This document shows positions 2,863 to 61,735 of a stretch of 64,000 nucleotides of DNA, piece by piece. The notes beneath the pieces were generated by a model. That model did no database searches. It saw only the letters and a program-made list of their open reading frames with translations, and was not told the origin of the DNA. The translations under genes were made by a program, and so were the position numbers. The stretch spans positions 13,888,001 to 13,952,000 of the forward strand of contig OX597822.1 of NCBI GenBank assembly GCA_951406725.2, read 5' to 3'. Position 1 is the first letter of the stretch; each line of letters opens with the position of its first letter. The DNA comes from Octopus vulgaris (Eukaryota).

Positions 2863-2899
2863 CTTATTACACATATATATTTATATAACATAAACGATA

Positions 2900-3135
2900 T
2901 ATAAATATATGCATATATACATGTATATATATGTACTTACCTACATATATATGCCTATATGGGTACAGAGATAAAAAAAAACCTAGACAGAATGAGAACA
3001 TAAAAAGCAAAAACAGAATGATTTTTTGTGGAGGATGAAAATGGCAACAAAAATAACACAGTGAGAATAAGCAGTAAAAACGAACGGTGAGGGTTGTTAA
3101 GCGAAGACGATGTGAAGTGCTGAACGCTGGAAAAA
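2900..3135 (-). mobile_element. Family P non-coding repeat, internally deleted copy (ribozyme segment missing)
   Basis: Shares tatatgggtacag motif and the attttttgYggagg...cagtgagaa...gttaag..aagacgatg...tgaacgct block with 52445-52895. Confidence 0.65.
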
Positions 3136-3284
3136 CAAGCTTTGAGAAGAGCGCGTTGTATTATTTCATGGTGCTGTTTACAATATCTGGTTATTCAATA
3201 ATCAATGCGAAACCGATTGATAAGATGAGCTTTAAAAGATCTATAATAACGTACACTTAGAATGTGTGTGTGTGTGCGTGTTTG

Positions 3285-20724: not shown

Positions 20725-20771
<47 letters not shown>

Positions 20772-21087
20772 ATGCATATATGGGTACAGGATGTCACCAA
20801 CTGTGTAGACAAACGAGTTAAATACGTAAACAACGAGAGAGAAAAAATGGAAACCTGGATGAATAAACACAGAGAAACGACCCTTCACCAGTTGTCGGCT
20901 GTCTCTCTGCTCTTCATTTCGAGCATTCAACGACACCGCCTTCCTTCCTTTTCCGTCTCCCAAATCCACTCACAAGACATTGGTCGGCCCATGGCTATAG
21001 AAGACAATTGCCCGAGGCACCTCGCAGTGGGACTCTATTCTGAAACTCGTGATTGGGAAGCAAACTTCTTACCACACAGCCATGCCT
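20475..21087 (-). mobile_element. Diverged SINE A whose internal microsatellite carries a family P fragment (20771-20936)
   Basis: Tail 20475-20660, head 20945-21087, insert with catgcatatatgggtacagga motif. Confidence 0.7.
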
Positions 21088-28834: not shown

Positions 28835-29536
28835 TAATAATAATGTTATGTGTAACGTACGAACATCCTAAAAAATTCTAAATAGCACATATGAATATAA
28901 CGTACATAACTTGATATACACATTTCGGGGGAAAATACAATTTCGCTTTATTTCATAATTTTTTGCCATCTATATTGTATAACCATTGCCATCTAAATTG
29001 TAATTAATTTACAAAATTTCAGTTAACGGATAATACTAGAGTTCTCAGCCTTGCCTCTTTACATTTTACTGACGACTCCTCCGAAAGGAGAGGGGCTGCC
29101 ACGTCGAAAACGGGAGAGGGGCCAAAACTGGATGTGGTTCCTTCTGATGGTCATGCCTTTAGCTACTGGATCCTATAAAGGAGCTGTTGAGGTAGCGAAT
29201 CATGAAACGTGTTTGGAATTCCTTTGCCTTGCCTCTTTTCTTTTTACAGCTTTAATATCCCTACAAGACGCTTTTATCCATGATCCTGGATTGTCTCAAA
29301 TGGCCGATGTTTTCTTTACATCATCATTATCATCGTCATCAATACTGTAAGAAATTATTACTGTTGTTATGGCTATTGTTTAAGGTGAGCTGACAGAATC
29401 GTTCGCACACCGAACTAAACGGTTAAAGCCATATTGTCTATCTTTAGGTTTTAAGTGCAAAACCCGCGGGGTCGGTGTAATCGACTAGCTCCCTTCCCCC
29501 AAAATTTTCAAGGCCTTGTGCCTAGAGTATAAAATA

Positions 29537-29600
<64 letters not shown>
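28146..29600. repeat. Local tandem duplication of a composite block including a SINE B copy
   Basis: 28146-28289 repeats at 28972-29118; 28457-28790 repeats at 29257-29540. Confidence 0.85.
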
Positions 29601-29602
<2 letters not shown>

Positions 29603-29607
<5 letters not shown>

Positions 29608-31770
29608 CTGTCTCCCTACAATGTACAAAGCATTTACTGCAGTAATATCACAAAGATTAAACAAGCACCTGGACGAAAACAATTTGTTTCCAGAAGAGCA
29701 GAAAGGATGCCGCAAATGCTCATATGGCTGTAAAGATCAACTAATGATCAATAAAGCCATAACTGAAGACAGCCACAGAAAAAAGAAAGGCCTCAGTATG
29801 GCCTGGATTGACTACAGGAAGGCGTTTGATAGCATCCCCCACACATGGATCCTCGAAACACTAGCCATGAACAAAGTCGCACCAACAATTATAAAATACA
29901 TAGGACACTCTATGAATAAATGGCAAACAGTGCTACAGCTCCAAACAAAAGAGGGACTCGTGAAAACTAAAGCCATCCCCATTAGAAGAGGAATATTCCA
30001 GGGAGATACGCTCTCTCCACTCCTTTTCTGCTTGGCACTGTCACCTCTATCTGATATGCTAAATAGAACTGGATGCGGATATAAATGTTACGGCAAAACG
30101 ATCAGCCACCTTTTATATATGGATGGCCTAAAACTATACGCTACAAATGACAAACAGCTGGAAACACTACTAAACACAGTTCATGGATTTACCAAAGAAA
30201 TAGATATGAAATTTGGATTAGAAAAATGTGCCAAAGTAACCCTGAAAAGAGGAAAACTAGTTAAGAGTAGCAACATCACACTAGATAAAGCCAATGAAAT
30301 AAGAGAATTAGACCAAAGCCAAACTTACAAATACTTAGGAATCAATGAACTAGATAAGACACAACACACACAAATGAAAGAGAAAATTAAAAAAAAGAAT
30401 ATTATAGACGAGTTAGATCAATACTGAAAACAGAGCTCAATGCTAAAAACAAAATAATAGGTATTAACACTTTAGCCCTCCCAGTTATAAGTTACAGCTA
30501 CAATATCCTTAACTGGACACTAAATGAACTGACCAAAATAGATAGGAAAACAAGAAAAATAATGACAGGATCTAGGATGAATCACCCAAGATCTGACATA
30601 GAAAGACTATATATACAACGTATAGAAGGTGGTAGAGGCCTTATACAGCTGCAAAAAACTACTATAAAATAGCCACCATAGGACTGCAAAAATATCTACT
30701 TCAGAAGGAAGGAAAACTGATACAAATAGCGGCAAAACACGAGCAAAACAAAAAAAACTGTTCTCAGTATTTAAGAAAGCTGACAAATACAAACAAGAAA
30801 TCATACCACCTAACAAATATGAAGAAGAAGAAGATGAAGAAACAACAAAAGCTATAAAACAAATGAAATCCAAACTAAAACTAGAACAGCAACGAACCAT
30901 GATAAAACGATGGCAAGAAAAGCCCCTTCATGGCAAATACTGGACTACACTAAATGCAAAAGAAATAGACAAAGAAAAATCCCAGCAATGGTTGAGAAGC
31001 TCAGGACTCAAAGCAGAGACAGAAGGATTTTTAATTGCAGCACAAGACCAAAGCCTCTCCACCAGAAATTACCAAAAACATGGAAAAGAATCGTAACAAG
31101 TAACTGCAGAATATGTGGAGGTGGACAAGAAACAATAAATCATATTATCTCTGGCTGCCCAGTTCTGGCTAAGAAGGAATATATTCACAGACACGACAGA
31201 GTTGGGACCTACATACACTGGAAGCTATGCCAACATTATGGAATAACAACAGAAAAAAGATGGTATAGGCACACACCAGAAAAGGTCACAGAAAACGAGA
31301 AAGCAACCATACTCTGAGATATGCCAATTCACACAGATAGAGAAATTAAGGCCAACAGACCAGATATAGTTGTCAGAGATTATGAAGAAAAAACATGCTT
31401 TCTAATTGATGTATCAATACCAGCAGATGACAACGTGCCTCTAAAAGAAATTGAGCAACTTTCAAAATACAAAGACCTGGAAATAGAGGTAATCAGAATG
31501 TGGAATCTAAAAATAGAAACAATTCCTGTCATAGTAGGTGCATTAGGCATGATAAAAAATATTCAAACAAATGCATAACAAAACACCAGGACTTACAAAC
31601 ACATATAACATACAGAAAACTGCACTACTAGGCACTGCACACATCCTACGCAGAACACTTTCCATACAATAACCATCAGAGCATCACAACAAGTCACAGC
31701 ACAAACCCAAGGCACACAGAGCTGCACTCGGTAGTGAAGTGAAAGCACGCTATAAAAATAAAACTACTGG
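29603..31770 (+). mobile_element. R4/Dong-clade non-LTR retrotransposon, 5' truncated and frameshifted, copy 1
   Basis: ITCLPT, EQKG, WIDYRKAFDS, GIFQGDTLSPLLF, YMDG (YMDD mutated), CRIC..ETINHIISGC, RHD, RPDIV..IDVS, KY; stop at 31670-31672; (TAA)n on both sides. Confidence 0.93.
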
Positions 31771-31837
<67 letters not shown>

Positions 31838-31838
31838 A

Positions 31839-31879
<41 letters not shown>

Positions 31880-31928
31880 AAATAATAATAATAATAATGA
31901 TGAAAATAATAATAATAATAATGATGAA

Positions 31929-31997
<69 letters not shown>

Positions 31998-32027
31998 GAT
32001 GAAAATAATAATAATAATAATGATGAA

Positions 32028-32115
<88 letters not shown>
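31771..32115. repeat. (TAA)n array with recurring ATGAAA interruptions
   Basis: Directly visible. Confidence 0.95.
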
Positions 32116-34001
32116 TCGACACAAAAACTTATCAATAGCCTGGATAGACTATAAAAAGGCTTTTGATAGCCGATCACATAGCTGAATAAAGAAATGCCTG
32201 GAAATGTATAAAATAGCGCCTACTCTGCGAAACTTTTTGTCTGTAAGTATGAGATCATGGAGAACCAAACTAACTTTGAACAGTGACGATGAATCTCTAA
32301 ATGCTGGTGATGTAAACATTTCTTGTGGCATTTTCGAGGGCGACTCACTATCACCACTCCTTTTTTGTTTAGCCTTGATACCCCTCTCAAAATTGCTCAA
32401 TGACACACAGTACGGATATAAAATGTTGGATAAAAATATAAATCATCTCATTTACATGGATGATTTAAAGGTCTTTGCAAAAAAATGGCCAAAATCTCAA
32501 GGGCTTAAACAATTCAGCGATGACATGAGAATGCAATTTGGCCTCGAAAAATGTGCAAAAGCTACCTTTATCAAAAGAAAAATGACAGAAACATCTAACA
32601 TTAACCTTGACCAGCAGAATGTTATAAAAGAGTTAGACCCAGCAGAGAGCTACCTAGGGGTAATTGAAGGGGATGGAATAAGGCATTCAGTGATGAAGGA
32701 AAGGATCAGGAGAGAATGTTATCGCAGAGTAAGAGCAATACTCAAGACAGAGCTGAATGCGAGAAACAGGATCGAAGCGATCAATGCTTTAGCCACATCA
32801 GTCGTGACTTACAGTTTCAATATCGTTAACTGGTCAATAACTGAAATGTGTAATCTTGACAGAAAAATACGAAAACTGTTGACAATGCATTGAATGCACC
32901 ACCCTAAGGCAGATACAGAACGACTTTATCTGCCAAGAAAAGGAATATCTAAGTGAATTCCGAATACAACAAATTTCGGAATTAGACATACAAGAAACAA
33001 GCACAGAAAAAGCTAAGCGCATGAAAACCCGTGCTATAACTTCTGCCTTAGATATTCTGAATGACAAGAAAAACCTCTCAATGGCAAATACCAAAAGAGA
33101 GGGAATAATGCAGATGTTGACAAAGCCCTGACCCATCAATGGCTAATGGCCTCTGGCTTAAAATCTGAAACAAGGATTTATCATAGCAGCTCAAGATCAA
33201 TGCCTACCTACAAGAAATTACCAGGCCAACATATTAAAGAACGGCAGTAGCCCAACATGTCGTGTATGTCAACAACAAAATAAAACCATTGATCATGTTA
33301 TCTCCAAGTGCAGTCTTCTTGCACCTACAGAGTATCTCAACAGGCATGATAGAGCTACACAATATATTCACTGGGTAATTTGCAAAAGCCTGGACTTTGA
33401 TAAAAACTTGTGGGAACACAAACCACCTCCAGTGTTTGAAAATGACCACATTTCACTCCTATGGAACTTCACCATTCAAACAGACAGAAAGATAGACGCG
33501 AATAGGCCAGACATCATAGTAAAAGACTTTAGACAAAAAACATACCTCCTCATTGATATGACTGTCCCAATCGATATAAACGTATCTGTCAAGACCTACC
33601 AAAGACGGAGCAAATATAAAGATCTTGAAATAGAAATCAGCAAAATGTGGAACCCGAAGACAAAAACAGTACCTGTTTGTCATAGGTGCCCTGGGAATGA
33701 TAGCAAAAGGGGCTGATTGCTACCTAACTCAGATACCAGGAAACCCCAAAATGGCAGAAATTCAAAAGATAGTGCTCATGGGAAGTGCTCATATCCTACG
33801 CAAAATACTTTCTATGTGATCTCAAGTTTTAAAACAAACATAATTTTCGTATGGTTTTTTAGGCATACAACACTAAGTACAAAACCAAATATATGGCACC
33901 CTAGGCATAACACCAACATGAACTTCCAACTTGTTGTCTCTTGAGGTCTCTGGGTGAGACGTGGAGCCAGCTTGTGCAAATGTAAAGCATAGTCAAACAT
34001 A
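32116..34001 (+). mobile_element. R4/Dong-clade non-LTR retrotransposon, 5' truncated, different family, copy 2
   Basis: AWIDYKKAFDS, GIFEGDSLSPLLF, YMDD, CRVC..TIDHVISKC, RHD, RPDII..IDMT; ends in (TAA)n. Confidence 0.93.
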
Positions 34002-37962: not shown

Positions 37963-39719
37963 TAGACCTATATAAATGTAACTACTGCAAGCTAAACTAT
38001 TGGAATGTTTTACATATTTTCATTAAGTGAAATTTCTTAATTAACTTTCTCTATTCTAGTTTTGTAAAGCCCAGCTTCTCAATATAGATGCTGTGATAAT
38101 TGGTTATATAACAAAGTGCCACAATAATTACAGGTATAAACCTGTAATTATAGTCCTGGTAGACTATGTTGTTGTCTTTGGACATAGATGCTTTCTCATT
38201 AGGAATGTCTTTATCATTATGTTAATCGGTTGAGCAATCAATTACTACGCATTCTCTGGTCCTTGTCTCGGGTCATTATGTCTGGTCAATTATGCTTTCG
38301 CAGTAGTTTTGGCACCAATATTCCATCCGTTATCTTTTATATTACGGGTGAATATGCCTTTTAACAACATTAGTGCTTCTAATATTCTTATCGCTAGCAC
38401 TTTCTGCGGATTTCATTCTGTAGTTTCCACCAAAATGTCATATCATTTACGTGAATTCTAATGTGATCAGAGTTTAGACCGTCTGCTTAATAATGCGGGT
38501 GACATGTTTGGTGCTAATTCCAGGGTCGGCATTTAGACAATTTACCAGTATCACATTTTCATTGGGATAACAGGCTATACTTATTTTTATTTCTTGATTA
38601 ACTCAGCCCAAACGCATGCATACACACAAACACATAAACAGACACACACACACACACGTATATAAGTGTGTGTGTGTGTAATCTCCGCAAGTTGTTGTTT
38701 CCTATGCAATTCTCAGTGCTAGCTTTCACATTATTAGAAATTTTGAAGGCACTAATCAAAACTACACACACACACATACACATGTATGCATATACACATA
38801 TATGAAGAATTAAAGAACAGCTATTCACAATGAGACGAAATGATTAAGAAATTAATGATATGCATAATAATTGAATTTTCAATTCATTTTATTTCACTTC
38901 AATTGTATACGACTCAATTGTCATTTTCATAAATGTTTTGTGATATGAAGTCGATGGCAGGCCTCTGGATTCACGAACAACAATAACTAAAACAACAGCA
39001 GCAGCAACGACAACAATAATAATATCAAGAATAACCACATAGATACAATAAACACGAAATCAGTGATTCATAGAATAATAATAGAAATCAAATGACAATA
39101 GTTATATATTAATAAAGTAGTGATATTTTTTTATACAATAAGATGACTGGTTATTGTCATAATAGAATAATTAGAATAACGAATTAAGCATAGTAACAAT
39201 TAGAAAGAGAAGAACAGAGATTCATAAATGTGAGAGACAGTCGTAAGTAATACGAATGTGTTCGTGTTATATAGCGTTGTTGTAAGGAGGGTTGTACCAG
39301 ATAGTTAACCTGTTGTGTTTGGCACTATGTTGTCTATCGTTCGTCTGATGATGAGGCAGTGAAATTTGGTGCTACGAACTTCCCGGCTATCGAGCTTTAC
39401 TCATGAACAAACTGTCGATGATGGGATGAGGTTGATGATGATGAAGACGACGATGACGATGGTGATGATGATGGTGGTGATGGTGGGGATAATGATTTTG
39501 ATTATCGTGATGATGAAGACAATGATGATGATGGTGCTATTGACGACAACGTTGATGATGTCTATGGTGATGGTTGTTGTTGTTGTTGTTGTTGCGGTGG
39601 TGGTGTTCATGGAACTATTGCTGTTCTTGCTTCATCTCATTTTGAATGATTGAAGTTACCTATGATCAAAGGTTATGCCGACGGTGGCCTTCTCGTCTTC
39701 ATATATATATATATATATA

Positions 39720-40440
39720 TATATGTTAATAAAATATATGCATATATATAAACATATATGTACGTACCTACCTCTACATGTACATATACACGCATATATG
39801 TGTACAGGACACCAAAAAGACGTCGAACACATAGAGAGACGAAAAACATAGACACAAACCAAGGAACAAGACAGGCAAAAAAAACGGAGATACAGGACAA
39901 TAAGCACAACGAAAAATCCCCTTCTTCAGTCGCTAAAGTTTCATCTACTAAACGTTTCGAAGGATAAAAGCGAGACGTATACTTCGAATGAAAAATTCCT
40001 TCCTGCGAAAAGCAAATCAATTAAAATTCTGAGATCTTTTCGCAGAGGGGTAAAAAAAGCAAGACGGTAACGACAGTACAAACATATAAACAGTAAAAAA
40101 TATATATATAAACAGTGGAAAAATAAATATATAACAGTGAGAGACAGGACAAGGAGAACAAGATAAGAAGGGCTGTTAACGCCAGACGAAAAAAGTATTG
40201 CAAACGCTGGATTATAGTGGACGACGAGAGAGGAAGATGTCGACCAGTGGCCTTAGAAGGCGGGCGAGAAAGGACGGGATAGCAGTTACGACGGAAGTAC
40301 GTCGCAGATGGACGACGGGAATGGGGGAGGAGGAGCAAGAGGAAGAGAGAGAAGAAGGGGAATGGTGCGAGGAGACCATGAAGAACAGTGAGGGGGAGAG
40401 AGAGAGGAAGAGACAAGTTAAGTGAGGGAAAAAAGACGAA
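39720..40440 (-). mobile_element. Family P non-coding repeat, long copy flanked by (TA)n
   Basis: gcatatatgtgtacagga motif, ribozyme block, hairpin 39998-40049, ggctgttaa..agacg block shared with 52445-52895. Confidence 0.7.
39918..39988 (-). ncRNA. Putative non-circularly permuted hammerhead ribozyme (subfamily P1), intact core
   Basis: gaag-tatacg-TC-tcgct-tttatccttc-GAAA-cgttta..agcga-CTGAAGA-agggg. Confidence 0.7.
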
Positions 40441-40468
<28 letters not shown>

Positions 40469-52056: not shown

Positions 52057-52307
52057 ATAAATTACTTTGCCGCATACTGAACTCATTAGAAATAGCAGCT
52101 AAAAAACTTATTTAAAGCTATTTCTAATACTTAAAGAAAATCTCTCTCATATATAGCGTTTGCTTAATTCAACTCACAAAACTTTTGTGAGTTGAATTAA
52201 GCAAACGCTATATATGAGAGAGATTTTCTTTAAGTATTAGAAATAGCTTTAAATAAGTTTTTTAGCTGCTATTTCTAATGAGTTCAGTATGCGGCAAAGT
52301 AATTTAT
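52057..52307. repeat. Perfect 251-bp palindrome (125-bp arms, 1-nt centre at 52182) with one-sided tail to about 52430
   Basis: Arms compared base by base by eye; no mismatch seen. Confidence 0.93.
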
Positions 52308-52444: not shown

Positions 52445-52895
52445 ACATACTTGGAAAAGGATGCGTGGCGTTCGTTCATATAATAATATAAATAATATAT
52501 ACATACATATATGTACATACCTGCATATATATGTATATATACATGCATATATGGGTACAGGACATAAAAAAAAAAAACCTTGAACACAATGAGAAACAAA
52601 AACATAGAAACGAACTTTTTTTCAAACAACGGAACAAACAGAGTACAAGACATACATCACAAGGAATATTCCCCTGCTTCAGTTGTCCCTGTTTCAACTA
52701 CTCCGCGTTACGAAGTTAAGGACAAGACGCGGCTTCGTTGAAACAATCCTTCCCGCAAAGCAAATTAAATAAAATTTGGGATTTTTTGCGGAGGGTAAAA
52801 ATGGTAACAAGAACAGGACAGTGAGAACAAAACAGTAAAAACAAACGGCGAAGGCTGTTAAGTCAAGACGATGGAGAAATTATTCTGAACGCTTA
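52445..52895 (-). mobile_element. Family P non-coding repeat with intact 3' end
   Basis: End acttggaaaaggatgcgtggcgttcg matches the reverse complement of 59570-59596; atgcatatatgggtacagga motif; ribozyme block. Confidence 0.75.
52671..52739 (-). ncRNA. Permuted hammerhead motif with two core substitutions
   Basis: gaag-ccgcg-TC-ttgtcc-ttaacttc-GTAA-cgcgg..ggacaa-CTGAAGC-agggg. Confidence 0.62.
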
Positions 52896-52934
52896 AGGAT
52901 ACTCGACTCTCTCGTCACTGACACGTGATCAGAG

Positions 52935-53218
52935 GGAAGCCATCTTTCCAACTGCTATTTTCACCAAGACCAGACCAGCTTATCCTGCCTCTTTCATAAG
53001 CTGTCTCGACCTGAAGAAAAGATCAGGCTACTCGACCTGAAGAAAATTCTGACTGGGCCCCACCTTGCAAGGTCATGCGCCGTTTATCTTGATATGAGAT
53101 CACCATGTTGCACACCTTGTGGTTGTGATGCACGTGCCTGGTGTACTCTTAGACGAGTAGTCATTATGGGTATACTGGGCTTCATATATTTTACTCCAGT
53201 TGCTCTCTTACTCAATAA
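52935..53218 (+). mobile_element. Retroposon 3' end terminating in (TAA)n
   Basis: tgggcttcRtatattttacYccagt...ctctYactcaataat also present at 28393-28457. Confidence 0.55.
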
Positions 53219-58959: not shown

Positions 58960-59009
<50 letters not shown>

Positions 59010-59036
59010 ATATACATACATATATGTACATACCTA

Positions 59037-59080
<44 letters not shown>

Positions 59081-59086
59081 TTATAT

Positions 59087-59593
59087 ATAAGTATATATAC
59101 ATGCATATATGGGTGCAGAGCATCAAAAAGACGTGAACGAGAACATGAAAAACAAAAACATAGAAAACGAACTTATTTCGAAAATGAAGAAAACAAACAA
59201 ACACAGAATCGAGACATGCAGCGTAAAGAACATTCCGTTCATCAGTTGTCTGGAGTAGATAAAACCGGGGACAACTGATGAAGGGAATGTTCTTTATGTT
59301 GCATGTCTCGTTTCTCTATTTGTTTGTTTTTTTTCTTCGTTGTTCGAAAAAAAGTTCGTTTCTCCATTTCTTTTTTTTTTTTCCGTTGTTCGAAAAAGTT
59401 CGTTTTCTATGTTTTTGATTTTTCACTTTTTTGTTTCTCGTTGTGTTCAACATTTTTTTGATGTCCTGTACCCATATATGCATGTATATATACATATATA
59501 TGTACGTATATACATATATGTATGTATATATGCATATATATGTATATATTTTTTATATTATTATGAAATCGAACGCCACGCATCCTTTTCCGA

Positions 59594-59598
<5 letters not shown>
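59087..59598. mobile_element. Family P foldback copy (inverted 5' arm plus sense arm with tail)
   Basis: 59087-59250 is the inverted copy of about 59270-59490; CTGATGA at 59275-59281 and its complement at 59239-59245. Confidence 0.75.
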
Positions 59599-59676
<78 letters not shown>

Positions 59677-60789: not shown

Positions 60790-61010
60790 AACATTTGTAT
60801 ACGTACAGTGTTGATATAAATAGTAAATAAATATATATGCATATATACATACATACGTGAACATACCCACGTATATATAAATGCATATATGGGTACAGGA
60901 CGTGAGAAAACATGAACAACATGAAAAACGAGAACATGAAAAAACAAAAACATGGAAAATGAACTTTTTTGAAGTTTGACTAAACAGAAACAACAAATTT
61001 CCCGCAAATC
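60790..61010 (-). mobile_element. Family P fragment without the ribozyme block
   Basis: atgcatatatgggtacaggacgtg...aacgagaacatgaaaaaacaaaaacat shared with 59101-59165. Confidence 0.65.
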
Positions 61011-61735
61011 TCATTTTCAAAATGTATTGTAACGCACGCTTGTATGTATGTATGTATGTATGTATGTATGTATGTATGTATGTATGTATGTATGTATGTA
61101 TGTATGTATGTACGTACGTACGTATGTATGTATGTATGTATGTATGTATGTATGTATGTATGTATGTATGCATGTATGTATGTATGTATGTATATATGTA
61201 TGTATGGTATGCATGTACATGCGTATGTATGAATGTATATATCTATGTATGTGTACTTTGCAACAGATGTGTATGCAGGCACGGTTTTGGTATCAAGAAC
61301 GCATCCAATTTGATTTGTGCATCAAAGCGTGTGAGAATCAGAGCGTGTCTATTTGCCTGTCTGCCTGTTTCTGTGTTCGTGTGTTAGTGTAAACTATGTT
61401 ATTAATTCGAAACCGGAAGTTTCCTACAGTGTCACGTGTGTTGAATGACGTTAATGCTCATCTCCCTGAAATCCAAAATGTTAGAGAAACACAAGTGGAA
61501 TCGGGTTTATGGAAATATTGCTGTAATTCTCACACATTAAGATAAAAAGGAAAACAACAATACTGCCATTAATGACACCCACCCATCACATGTGTGTGCC
61601 GAACAATACTTCCTCTTCGTTACTTTTAAATATAAAACATATTGTTGTCTGTAATGTGTGTGTGTGTGTGTGTGTACTTATATTCAAACAAATGAATGTA
61701 CTCAAACAGCAAGAAATAAAGATATAGTGATCGTA

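What the first reader, a model, noticed from the sequence alone, without database searches (positions are those of the whole stretch)
52445..52895. Family P: an abundant non-coding, ribozyme-bearing repeat that sits in (TA)n
Seen: at least six related segments in 64 kb (about 2900-3135, 20771-20936, 39720-40440, 52445-52895, 59087-59598, 60790-61010). They share a ctgtac(c/a)catata core (ribozyme-sense strand) and a U-rich stretch; some also share a defined 3' end and an upstream hairpin that covaries (ccgcaaa/tttgcgg at 52748-52796; ctgcgaaaag/cttttcgcag at 39998-40049). No ORF and no pol III boxes were seen. Inference: these are terminal repeats of a Penelope-like retroelement, or a non-autonomous retrozyme-like family that uses the permuted ribozyme for RNA processing.
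Basis: partly seen in the sequence, partly recalled or inferred. Interest (0 to 1): 0.75.

Follow-up and report, generated by a model that had tools for sequence, protein, structure and literature searches.

The report
Core-opened scrambled hammerhead retrozyme family
This is an abundant, recently active, non-coding jumping repeat whose RNA is predicted to fold into a self-cutting hammerhead ribozyme wired in an unusual way, and the same fold ends the local Naiad retroelements, a group reported to lack such ribozymes; cutting has not been tested at the bench.

Summary
Real family: 7,130 exact hits of a 19-nt core genome-wide, control 0. It is a non-coding retroelement of about 0.8 kb with no RT in cis. 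It lies in (TA)n as 5'-truncated singles, inverted pairs and head-to-tail arrays; the youngest subfamily is about 99% identical.

It carries a hammerhead in non-circular S-G-C order. Stems I and III covary across subfamilies. Degraded Naiad Penelope-like elements in this genome end in the same fold with different letters.

Indirect support for cutting: 5' ends pile up just after the predicted cut (12 of 49 versus 1 of 37 just before). Arrays have a fixed 3' end and reach 3.4 units, which fits a circular or multimeric template. No intact Naiad RT was found, so the present driver is unknown. Only 1 of the 6 window segments keeps an intact core; the 52445 copy is mutated.

The scan noted this fold before, here and in other genomes; I took the splint lead from those notes and tested it.

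The parts
52445..52902 (-). Subfamily A copy, 5'-truncated (-176 to about +308 relative to the predicted cut); ends with the 3' tail ...GCATCCTTTTCCAAGT next to (TA)n
   Evidence: 84-91% identical to the other top genomic hits
52902..53007 (+). 5' inversion: the next ~105 nt of the element (-277 to -172) in the opposite orientation
   Evidence: 85% identity, E 1e-27
52672..52796 (-). Mutated ribozyme of this copy: X1 CCCU 52792-95, hairpin H 52753-91, X2 GAAGG 52748-52, GUC ending at 52726, stem I 52720-25 with 52683-88, GUAA (should be GAAA) from 52711, CUGAAGC (should be CUGAAGA) 52676-82
   Evidence: likely inactive (inferred from the core changes)
39716..40441 (-). Subfamily B copy, 0.87 of an 833-836-nt monomer, 99% identical to other copies, (TA)n on both sides
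39918..40051 (-). Intact core-opened S-G-C hammerhead: X1 40046-50; hairpin H 40036-45 with 40003-12; X2 GAAGGA 39997-40002; ACG-UC with predicted cut between 39974 and 39973; stem I 39969-73 with 39930-34; UCCUUC 39959-64; GAAA-CGU 39952-58; AGUA 39946-49; CUGAAGA 39923-29; AGGGG 39918-22
   Evidence: cleavage predicted by analogy, not assayed
20771..20935 (-). Subfamily F copy whose 5' end lies 1 nt after the predicted cut; core reads CUGGUGA (mutated)
58982..59616 (.). Head-to-head inverted pair of 5'-truncated A-type copies (minus arm to 59250, plus arm from 59251), 3' ends facing outward into (TA)n; both lack the S and G blocks
2873..3142 (-). A-type copy with an internal deletion (-54 to +123) that removes the ribozyme
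60814..61012 (-). A-type 3' fragment (+104 to +263) with a short remnant of the hairpin near 61000

Best explanation
Family P is a non-coding, non-autonomous retroelement (a retrozyme-like repeat, monomer about 0.8 kb) whose RNA is predicted to fold into a core-opened S-G-C hammerhead that likely cuts multimeric transcripts into monomers, which a Penelope-type reverse transcriptase supplied in trans would copy into (TA)n sites. Shown: non-coding head-to-tail units, fixed 3' end, scattered 5' ends, (TA)n flanks, and covarying helices. Predicted fold, 5' to 3': X1 - hairpin H - X2 - stem III 3' strand - UH (cut) - stem I 5' strand - stem II 3' strand - GAAA - stem III 5' strand - AGUA loop and extension helix - stem I 3' strand - CUGAnGA - strand pairing back to X1. 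G10.1 is supplied by X2, so the backbone is opened between A9 and G10.1 and a four-way junction stands where stem II normally is. Inferred: self-cleavage in vivo (about 0.8). Inferred: both cut ends stay paired in one fold, which favours re-ligation to a circle that the RT copies from a fixed internal start for up to 3.4 turns (about 0.55; an uncut multimer gives the same arrays). Inferred: descent from a Naiad terminal repeat (about 0.6). The present driver is unidentified.
For: Copy number: 2,853 exact hits of the GAAA-to-CUGAnGA pattern and 7,130 of the 3' core, controls 0. Stems I and III: 3 of 5 pairs in each show compensatory changes, 93-99% of cells paired, against 32-49% when partners are slid (27 selected copies). 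Split stem II: X2 helix 4 of 5 pairs compensatory, covariation 0.50, against 1 of 4 and mostly G-U for the ordinary stem II. IIa-H-IIb join with 0-nt linkers and at least 4 hairpin pairs in 9 of 13 copies examined; 0 of 2,000 shuffles gave that geometry for each of B, F and Naiad. Naiad-type ribozyme: 273 pattern hits; found 1.0-1.4 kb past the RT match in 7 of 30 RT loci and in 6 of 20 more divergent ones (by eye); the family has GIY-YIG, CxC, DKA, RT in Naiad order (L387). Cleavage footprint: in 86 non-redundant copies anchored at the 3' core, 12 of 49 end within 15 nt after the cut and 1 of 37 in the 15 nt before (Fisher p=0.005; background 0.05 per bin, p=4e-6). In an independent listing, 22 of 24 distinct repeat-joined 5' ends lie 3' of the cut (read by eye). 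Arrays: 3' end at +251 to +260 in 29 of 30 B loci (the other runs off the locus; several loci overlap one array), 0.87-3.4 units.
Against: No cleavage assay. Covariation counts are over related subfamilies, so each change is one or a few events; the X2 helix rests mainly on the A-E versus F versus Naiad contrasts. The ordinary stem II remains 97% pairable within Family P. In 4 of 13 copies the hairpin next to the junction had fewer than 4 pairs, and unconstrained folding does not give the model (these tools cannot fold pseudoknots). The 5' ends peak 4-15 nt after the cut rather than at it, so RT stalling or microhomology with (TA)n could contribute; about three quarters of cDNAs read through the site. 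All Naiad RT hits were broken (longest open frame 300 aa; 150 of 725 candidates scored) although subfamily B is very young. Family P shows no significant DNA homology to 9 Naiad 3' regions. Intact Hydra-like and Neptune-like elements also end in (TA)n, so the target does not identify the driver.
Confidence: 0.74

Rival explanations
1. Plain type-SGC hammerhead: the strand after CUGAnGA pairs directly with the strand before GAAA (one extra A), and the upstream hairpin is a separate or anti-ribozyme element.
For: Four pairs are possible in 97% of cells, with one compensatory column (G-C to U-G in F). [quoted passage not shown] The short linker from stem I to stem II matches type SGC (PMC10085705).
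Against: Only 2 Watson-Crick pairs in Family P and 1 in the Naiad form. The splinted helix has 5-6 pairs and 4 compensatory columns. The 0-nt junction geometry recurs in three unrelated sequence sets.
Confidence: 0.12
2. The units are terminal repeats of an autonomous Penelope-like element not yet found, seen mostly as 5'-truncated ends.
For: 5' truncation, inverted copies (7 of 90), a 3' tail in some copies (26 of 90) and nearby (TA)n-type repeats (76 of 90) are PLE traits (PMC8557442 passages). Genome searches score only the best candidates.
Against: Arrays of up to 3.4 non-coding units. Shared upstream sequence ends about 550-620 nt before the core, where the previous unit's 3' end lies. 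No Family P ribozyme in sense behind any Hydra-like, Neptune-like or Naiad ORF examined.
Confidence: 0.08
3. The fold is a conserved protein-binding or RT-pausing structure and no longer cleaves.
For: Most copies read through the site; the 5' ends are offset from the scissile bond.
Against: CUGAnGA, GAAA, the A15.1-U16.1 pair and UH are kept across subfamilies and in Naiad while helices change. The hazard drops sharply just before the cut.
Confidence: 0.06

Closest known systems
Type-SGC hammerhead ribozymes (HRIMA-1 and variants; Eckert et al. 2023, PMC10085705; read parts 1, 3, 4, 5 of 8 and searched the supplement)
   Same: Order site - GAAA - CUGAnGA, crossing stems, short linker from stem I to stem II, all core nucleotides.
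   Different: [quoted passage not shown] They assume CUGAnGA is never separated from its stem II strand by more than 1-2 nt; here that strand comes from about 80 nt upstream through a four-way junction. This one sits in an animal retroelement in thousands of copies.
Non-LTR retrozymes of animals (Cervera and de la Pena 2020, PMC7229834, passages; bioRxiv 10.64898/2026.07.22.740005, passages and Discussion)
   Same: Non-coding, low GC (41%), head-to-tail monomers with one hammerhead each, proposed to be mobilised by PLEs.
   Different: Those carry type I hammerheads in 150-450-bp monomers. Here the monomer is 833-836 nt, the ribozyme is non-circularly permuted, and copies sit in (TA)n.
Naiad Penelope-like elements (Craig et al. 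2021, PMC8557442; passages, supplement parts 1, 18, 24, 25)
   Same: (TA)n targets, 5' truncation, inversions, tail. Naiad_Ovul, flagged 'HHR_half_core', and the consensus before it in the file (Naiad_Obim by file order) end in the same S-G-C, split-stem-II fold (by eye). Both end near CATCC(A/T)TTT.
   Different: Family P has no ORF and no significant DNA similarity to the Naiad 3' region. Local Naiads are decayed while Family P is young.
Pseudoknot (PK) hammerhead (PMC11300833, passages)
   Same: Helix II is replaced by another helical arrangement and the core still works.
   Different: It keeps A9 followed by a standard G10.1-C11.1 pair and has pistol-like connectivity; no strand opening at A9.

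Membership tests
Hammerhead ribozyme | CUGAnGA, GAAA and UH core with A15.1-U16.1 pair | tested here: met
   Invariant or nearly so across subfamilies; U-A pair in 27 of 27; intact in window copy 39720, mutated in 52445
Hammerhead ribozyme | Stems I and III flank the core and covary | tested here: met
   3 of 5 compensatory columns each
Hammerhead ribozyme | Stem II begins within 1-2 nt after A9 on the same strand | tested here: not met
   Split helix preferred: 4 of 5 versus 1 of 4 compensatory columns; the ordinary pairing is not excluded
Hammerhead ribozyme | Site-specific self-cleavage after H17 | not testable with these tools
   Only indirect: pile-up of genomic 5' ends just after the site
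Type-SGC hammerhead | Block order S-G-C with crossing stems | tested here: met
Type-SGC hammerhead | Three uninterrupted blocks; block C supplies the stem II strand | tested here: not met
Type-SGC hammerhead | Extra helix joining the distal sides of stems I and II | not tested
   Not counted on an alignment; an extension of stem III through an AGUA/GAA loop was seen by eye instead
Non-LTR retrozyme | Non-coding head-to-tail monomers, one hammerhead each, GC below 50% | tested here: met
Non-LTR retrozyme | Type I hammerhead and 150-450-bp monomer | tested here: not met
   S-G-C order; 833-836 nt
Non-LTR retrozyme | Expressed as monomeric linear and circular RNA | not testable with these tools
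   Needs stranded raw reads or northern blots
Penelope-like element (Naiad) | Fixed 3' end, 5' truncation, inversions, tail, (TA)n target | tested here: met
Penelope-like element (Naiad) | GIY-YIG plus RT ORF in cis | tested here: not met
Penelope-like element (Naiad) | DNA homology to a Naiad terminal repeat | tested here: not met
   No significant blastn hit against 9 Naiad 3' regions apart from a simple-repeat match; shared fold and short terminal motif only
tRNA-derived SINE | Pol III A and B boxes | tested here: not met
   Simple patterns, subfamily B monomer only

The most novel reading that the evidence does not exclude
A natural hammerhead topology outside the six-permutation scheme: the backbone is opened between A9 and G10.1 and closed by a four-way junction. 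It is the ancestral ribozyme of at least some Naiad retroelements, outlived them in a family of circular-RNA parasites, and these switched to another Penelope-type RT after the Naiads decayed.
Probability: 0.5. Interest if true: 0.85.

Novelty: new variant of a known kind. Interest (0 to 1): 0.74.

Why it matters
It would add a hammerhead wiring that current descriptors cannot see, which suggests hammerhead counts in animal genomes are too low. It offers a direct test of why Naiads were reported to lack canonical hammerheads. It places a non-circularly permuted ribozyme, so far described from environmental RNA, in thousands of copies of an animal mobile element. Because the two cut ends would remain paired through several helices, it is also a candidate self-circularising module. 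A 135-nt construct decides most of this.

Tried and rejected
Rfam scan: the 150 best of 299 matches shown were microRNA models hitting simple repeats, none at its gathering score; the other 149 were not displayed.

L022 RT fragment as partner: I first took it for Naiad. It belongs to intact RT plus C-terminal GIY-YIG elements (Hydra-like by motif, label recalled; Pfam gave no hit) whose UTR has a type I hammerhead read by eye. Rejected as a partner in cis.

PF01541 search: Neptune-like elements (label recalled); Family P copies near them are antisense or upstream, so independent insertions.

Pairing of G8-A9 with CCUUC: broken in F and Naiad. Group C1 was mixed with mis-oriented inverted copies and was dropped. 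One window row in alignment A1 was cut short; A2 corrects it. The IIa helix is out of register in A2, so it was counted per copy, not on the alignment.

RNA: no RNA holder listed. Contigs from four runs only guessed to be RNA cover the unit and the head-to-tail joint, which also exists in DNA; no verdict.

IMG/VR scan: 1 hit without the flanking stems by eye, taken as chance.

Literature: five searches listed no paper that, by title, abstract start or the passages read, describes an S-G-C or split-stem-II hammerhead in an animal retroelement. Subscription journals, Dfam and Repbase were not searchable, and bioRxiv supplements were not seen.

Full report
Setting. The window lies in a 2.8-Gb genome of 227 contigs, rich in simple repeats. 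It is probably an Octopus genome; this is inferred from its size and from the match to the published Naiad_Ovul 3' end.

Observation. The six segments are real and related. An exact 19-nt core has 7,130 hits genome-wide and the ribozyme pattern 2,853, both with reversed controls at 0. These are lower bounds on copy number. The 52445 copy is 84-91% identical to its best relatives, extends to 52902 and has a 5' inversion to 53007. The 39720 copy belongs to a young subfamily, 98-100% identical among the 40 best hits.

Anatomy. Subfamily B forms head-to-tail arrays of an 833-836-nt unit, 41% GC, with no Met-started ORF above 62 aa. In 29 of 30 loci the 3' end falls at +251 to +260 from the predicted cut; the other runs off the locus, and several loci cover the same array. 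The 5' ends are scattered, and arrays hold 0.87 to 3.4 units between (TA)n tracts. These loci were chosen as long matches, so they over-represent read-through. In other subfamilies shared upstream sequence stops 550-620 nt before the core, where the previous unit's 3' end appears. Among 90 copies anchored only on the 3' core, 76 have a (TA)n-type repeat within 150 nt downstream, 26 carry the longer 3' tail and 7 have an inverted copy upstream. These are Penelope-like insertion traits (PMC8557442, passages). A fixed internal start of reverse transcription is shown for another PLE in vitro (PMC11167929, abstract and first part of the main text).

Ribozyme. On the sense strand the cleavage triplet comes first, then GAAA, then CUGAnGA. 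This is the S-G-C order that Eckert et al. validated in environmental RNAs. Stems I and III change compensatorily between subfamilies, for example UUGUCC/GGACAA, UCGCU/AGCGA and UUGUCG/CGACAA in stem I, and CGCG/CGCG, UACG/CGUA and CUCA/UGAG in stem III. My first reading used an ordinary stem II of four pairs, two of them G-U. Earlier notes of this scan spoke of a helix held by an extra strand, so I tested that. The strand after A9 pairs with CCCU just 5' of the hairpin. The three helices abut with no spare nucleotides in 9 of 13 copies; the other 4 have fewer than four hairpin pairs at the junction. Shuffles never gave this geometry (0 of 2,000 for each of three sequences). The model is a hammerhead opened between A9 and G10.1, which breaks the assumption behind the six-permutation scheme. 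The copies aligned were picked for having the full region, and related copies inflate cell counts.

Naiad link. Craig et al. report that Naiads lack canonical hammerheads and flag eight as 'HHR_half_core'. Read by eye, Naiad_Ovul ends in the same arrangement with other letters: AUGG-UA, CUGCCC/GGGCAG, GACACC/GGUGUC, UGG/CCA. That motif has 273 exact hits here. It follows RT remnants in 7 of 30 and 6 of 20 loci; the fetched flanks were short, so absences say little. The family has Naiad domain order (L387), although no single fetched locus held both the N-terminal endonuclease and the ribozyme. Against a simple story: every Naiad RT hit was broken (150 of 725 candidates scored), Family P shares no significant DNA with the Naiad 3' region, and intact Hydra-like and Neptune-like elements also end in (TA)n. 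Ancestry from a Naiad is likely but unproven, and the current driver is unknown.

Does it cut? Not assayed. After dropping 4 duplicated loci from 90, 12 of 49 copies that reach the ribozyme end within 15 nt after the predicted cut, and 1 of 37 in the 15 nt before (p=0.005). The bin before that (+15 to +30) is also raised, 9 of 60 before de-duplication. A separate listing gave 22 of 24 repeat-joined 5' ends 3' of the cut (by eye, first 100 rows). This is what RT run-off from a cleaved RNA predicts. The peak is offset by 4-15 nt, so stalling and microhomology may add to it. About three quarters of copies read through, which needs a re-ligated circle or an uncut multimer; such a cycle was proposed for PLE hammerheads (PMC4209133, passage).

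Verdict. A real, abundant, non-autonomous retrozyme-like family with a predicted hammerhead variant that I could not find described in the searchable literature. It works like a non-LTR retrozyme and like a type-SGC hammerhead but fails a defining feature of each. The scan has reported this fold before in this genome and others.

Noticed in passing
G000:C1:119514500-119524400 (L151): Tandem trimer of an intact Penelope-like element (899-aa frame, RT plus C-terminal GIY-YIG, Hydra-like by recalled motifs) with many identical copies, a type I hammerhead with long stem II and palindromic loop III (by eye), ending in (TA)n. Candidate active driver.
   Followed up: partly
L167, L172 and relatives: Young Neptune-like family (781-aa frames, many identical GIY-YIG hits) with a repeat-rich 3' UTR ending in (TA)n; no hammerhead found in its UTR by my descriptor.
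   Followed up: partly
L002 and L012 flanks; L169: Other non-coding repeats with type I hammerheads (long stem II loop, palindromic stem III) inserted in the same (TA)n tracts as Family P or Neptune-like ends.
   Followed up: no
PMC8557442 supplement, Naiad-3_Dst and the consensus before it: By eye: GUC followed by GGGGUU pairs with AACCCC before CUGACGA about 400 nt later, with GAAA between; the strand after A9 again pairs upstream. Possible long-range relative of this fold in an ostracod.
   Followed up: no
PMC8557442 supplement, Naiad_Esco: By eye: S-G-C order with stems I and III present; stem II partner not resolved.
   Followed up: no
window 52060-52300: Long perfect-looking inverted repeat between (TA)n tracts, just left of the finding; probably a head-to-head pair of another element.
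   Followed up: no
window 29489-33713: Broken RT-coding frames of a non-LTR retrotransposon (several plus-strand pieces).
   Followed up: no
window 39946-39949 with 39984-39986, and all Family P subfamilies: Conserved AGUA opposite GAA between stem III and its extension helix, resembling a loop E / bulged-G motif (motif name recalled).
   Followed up: partly
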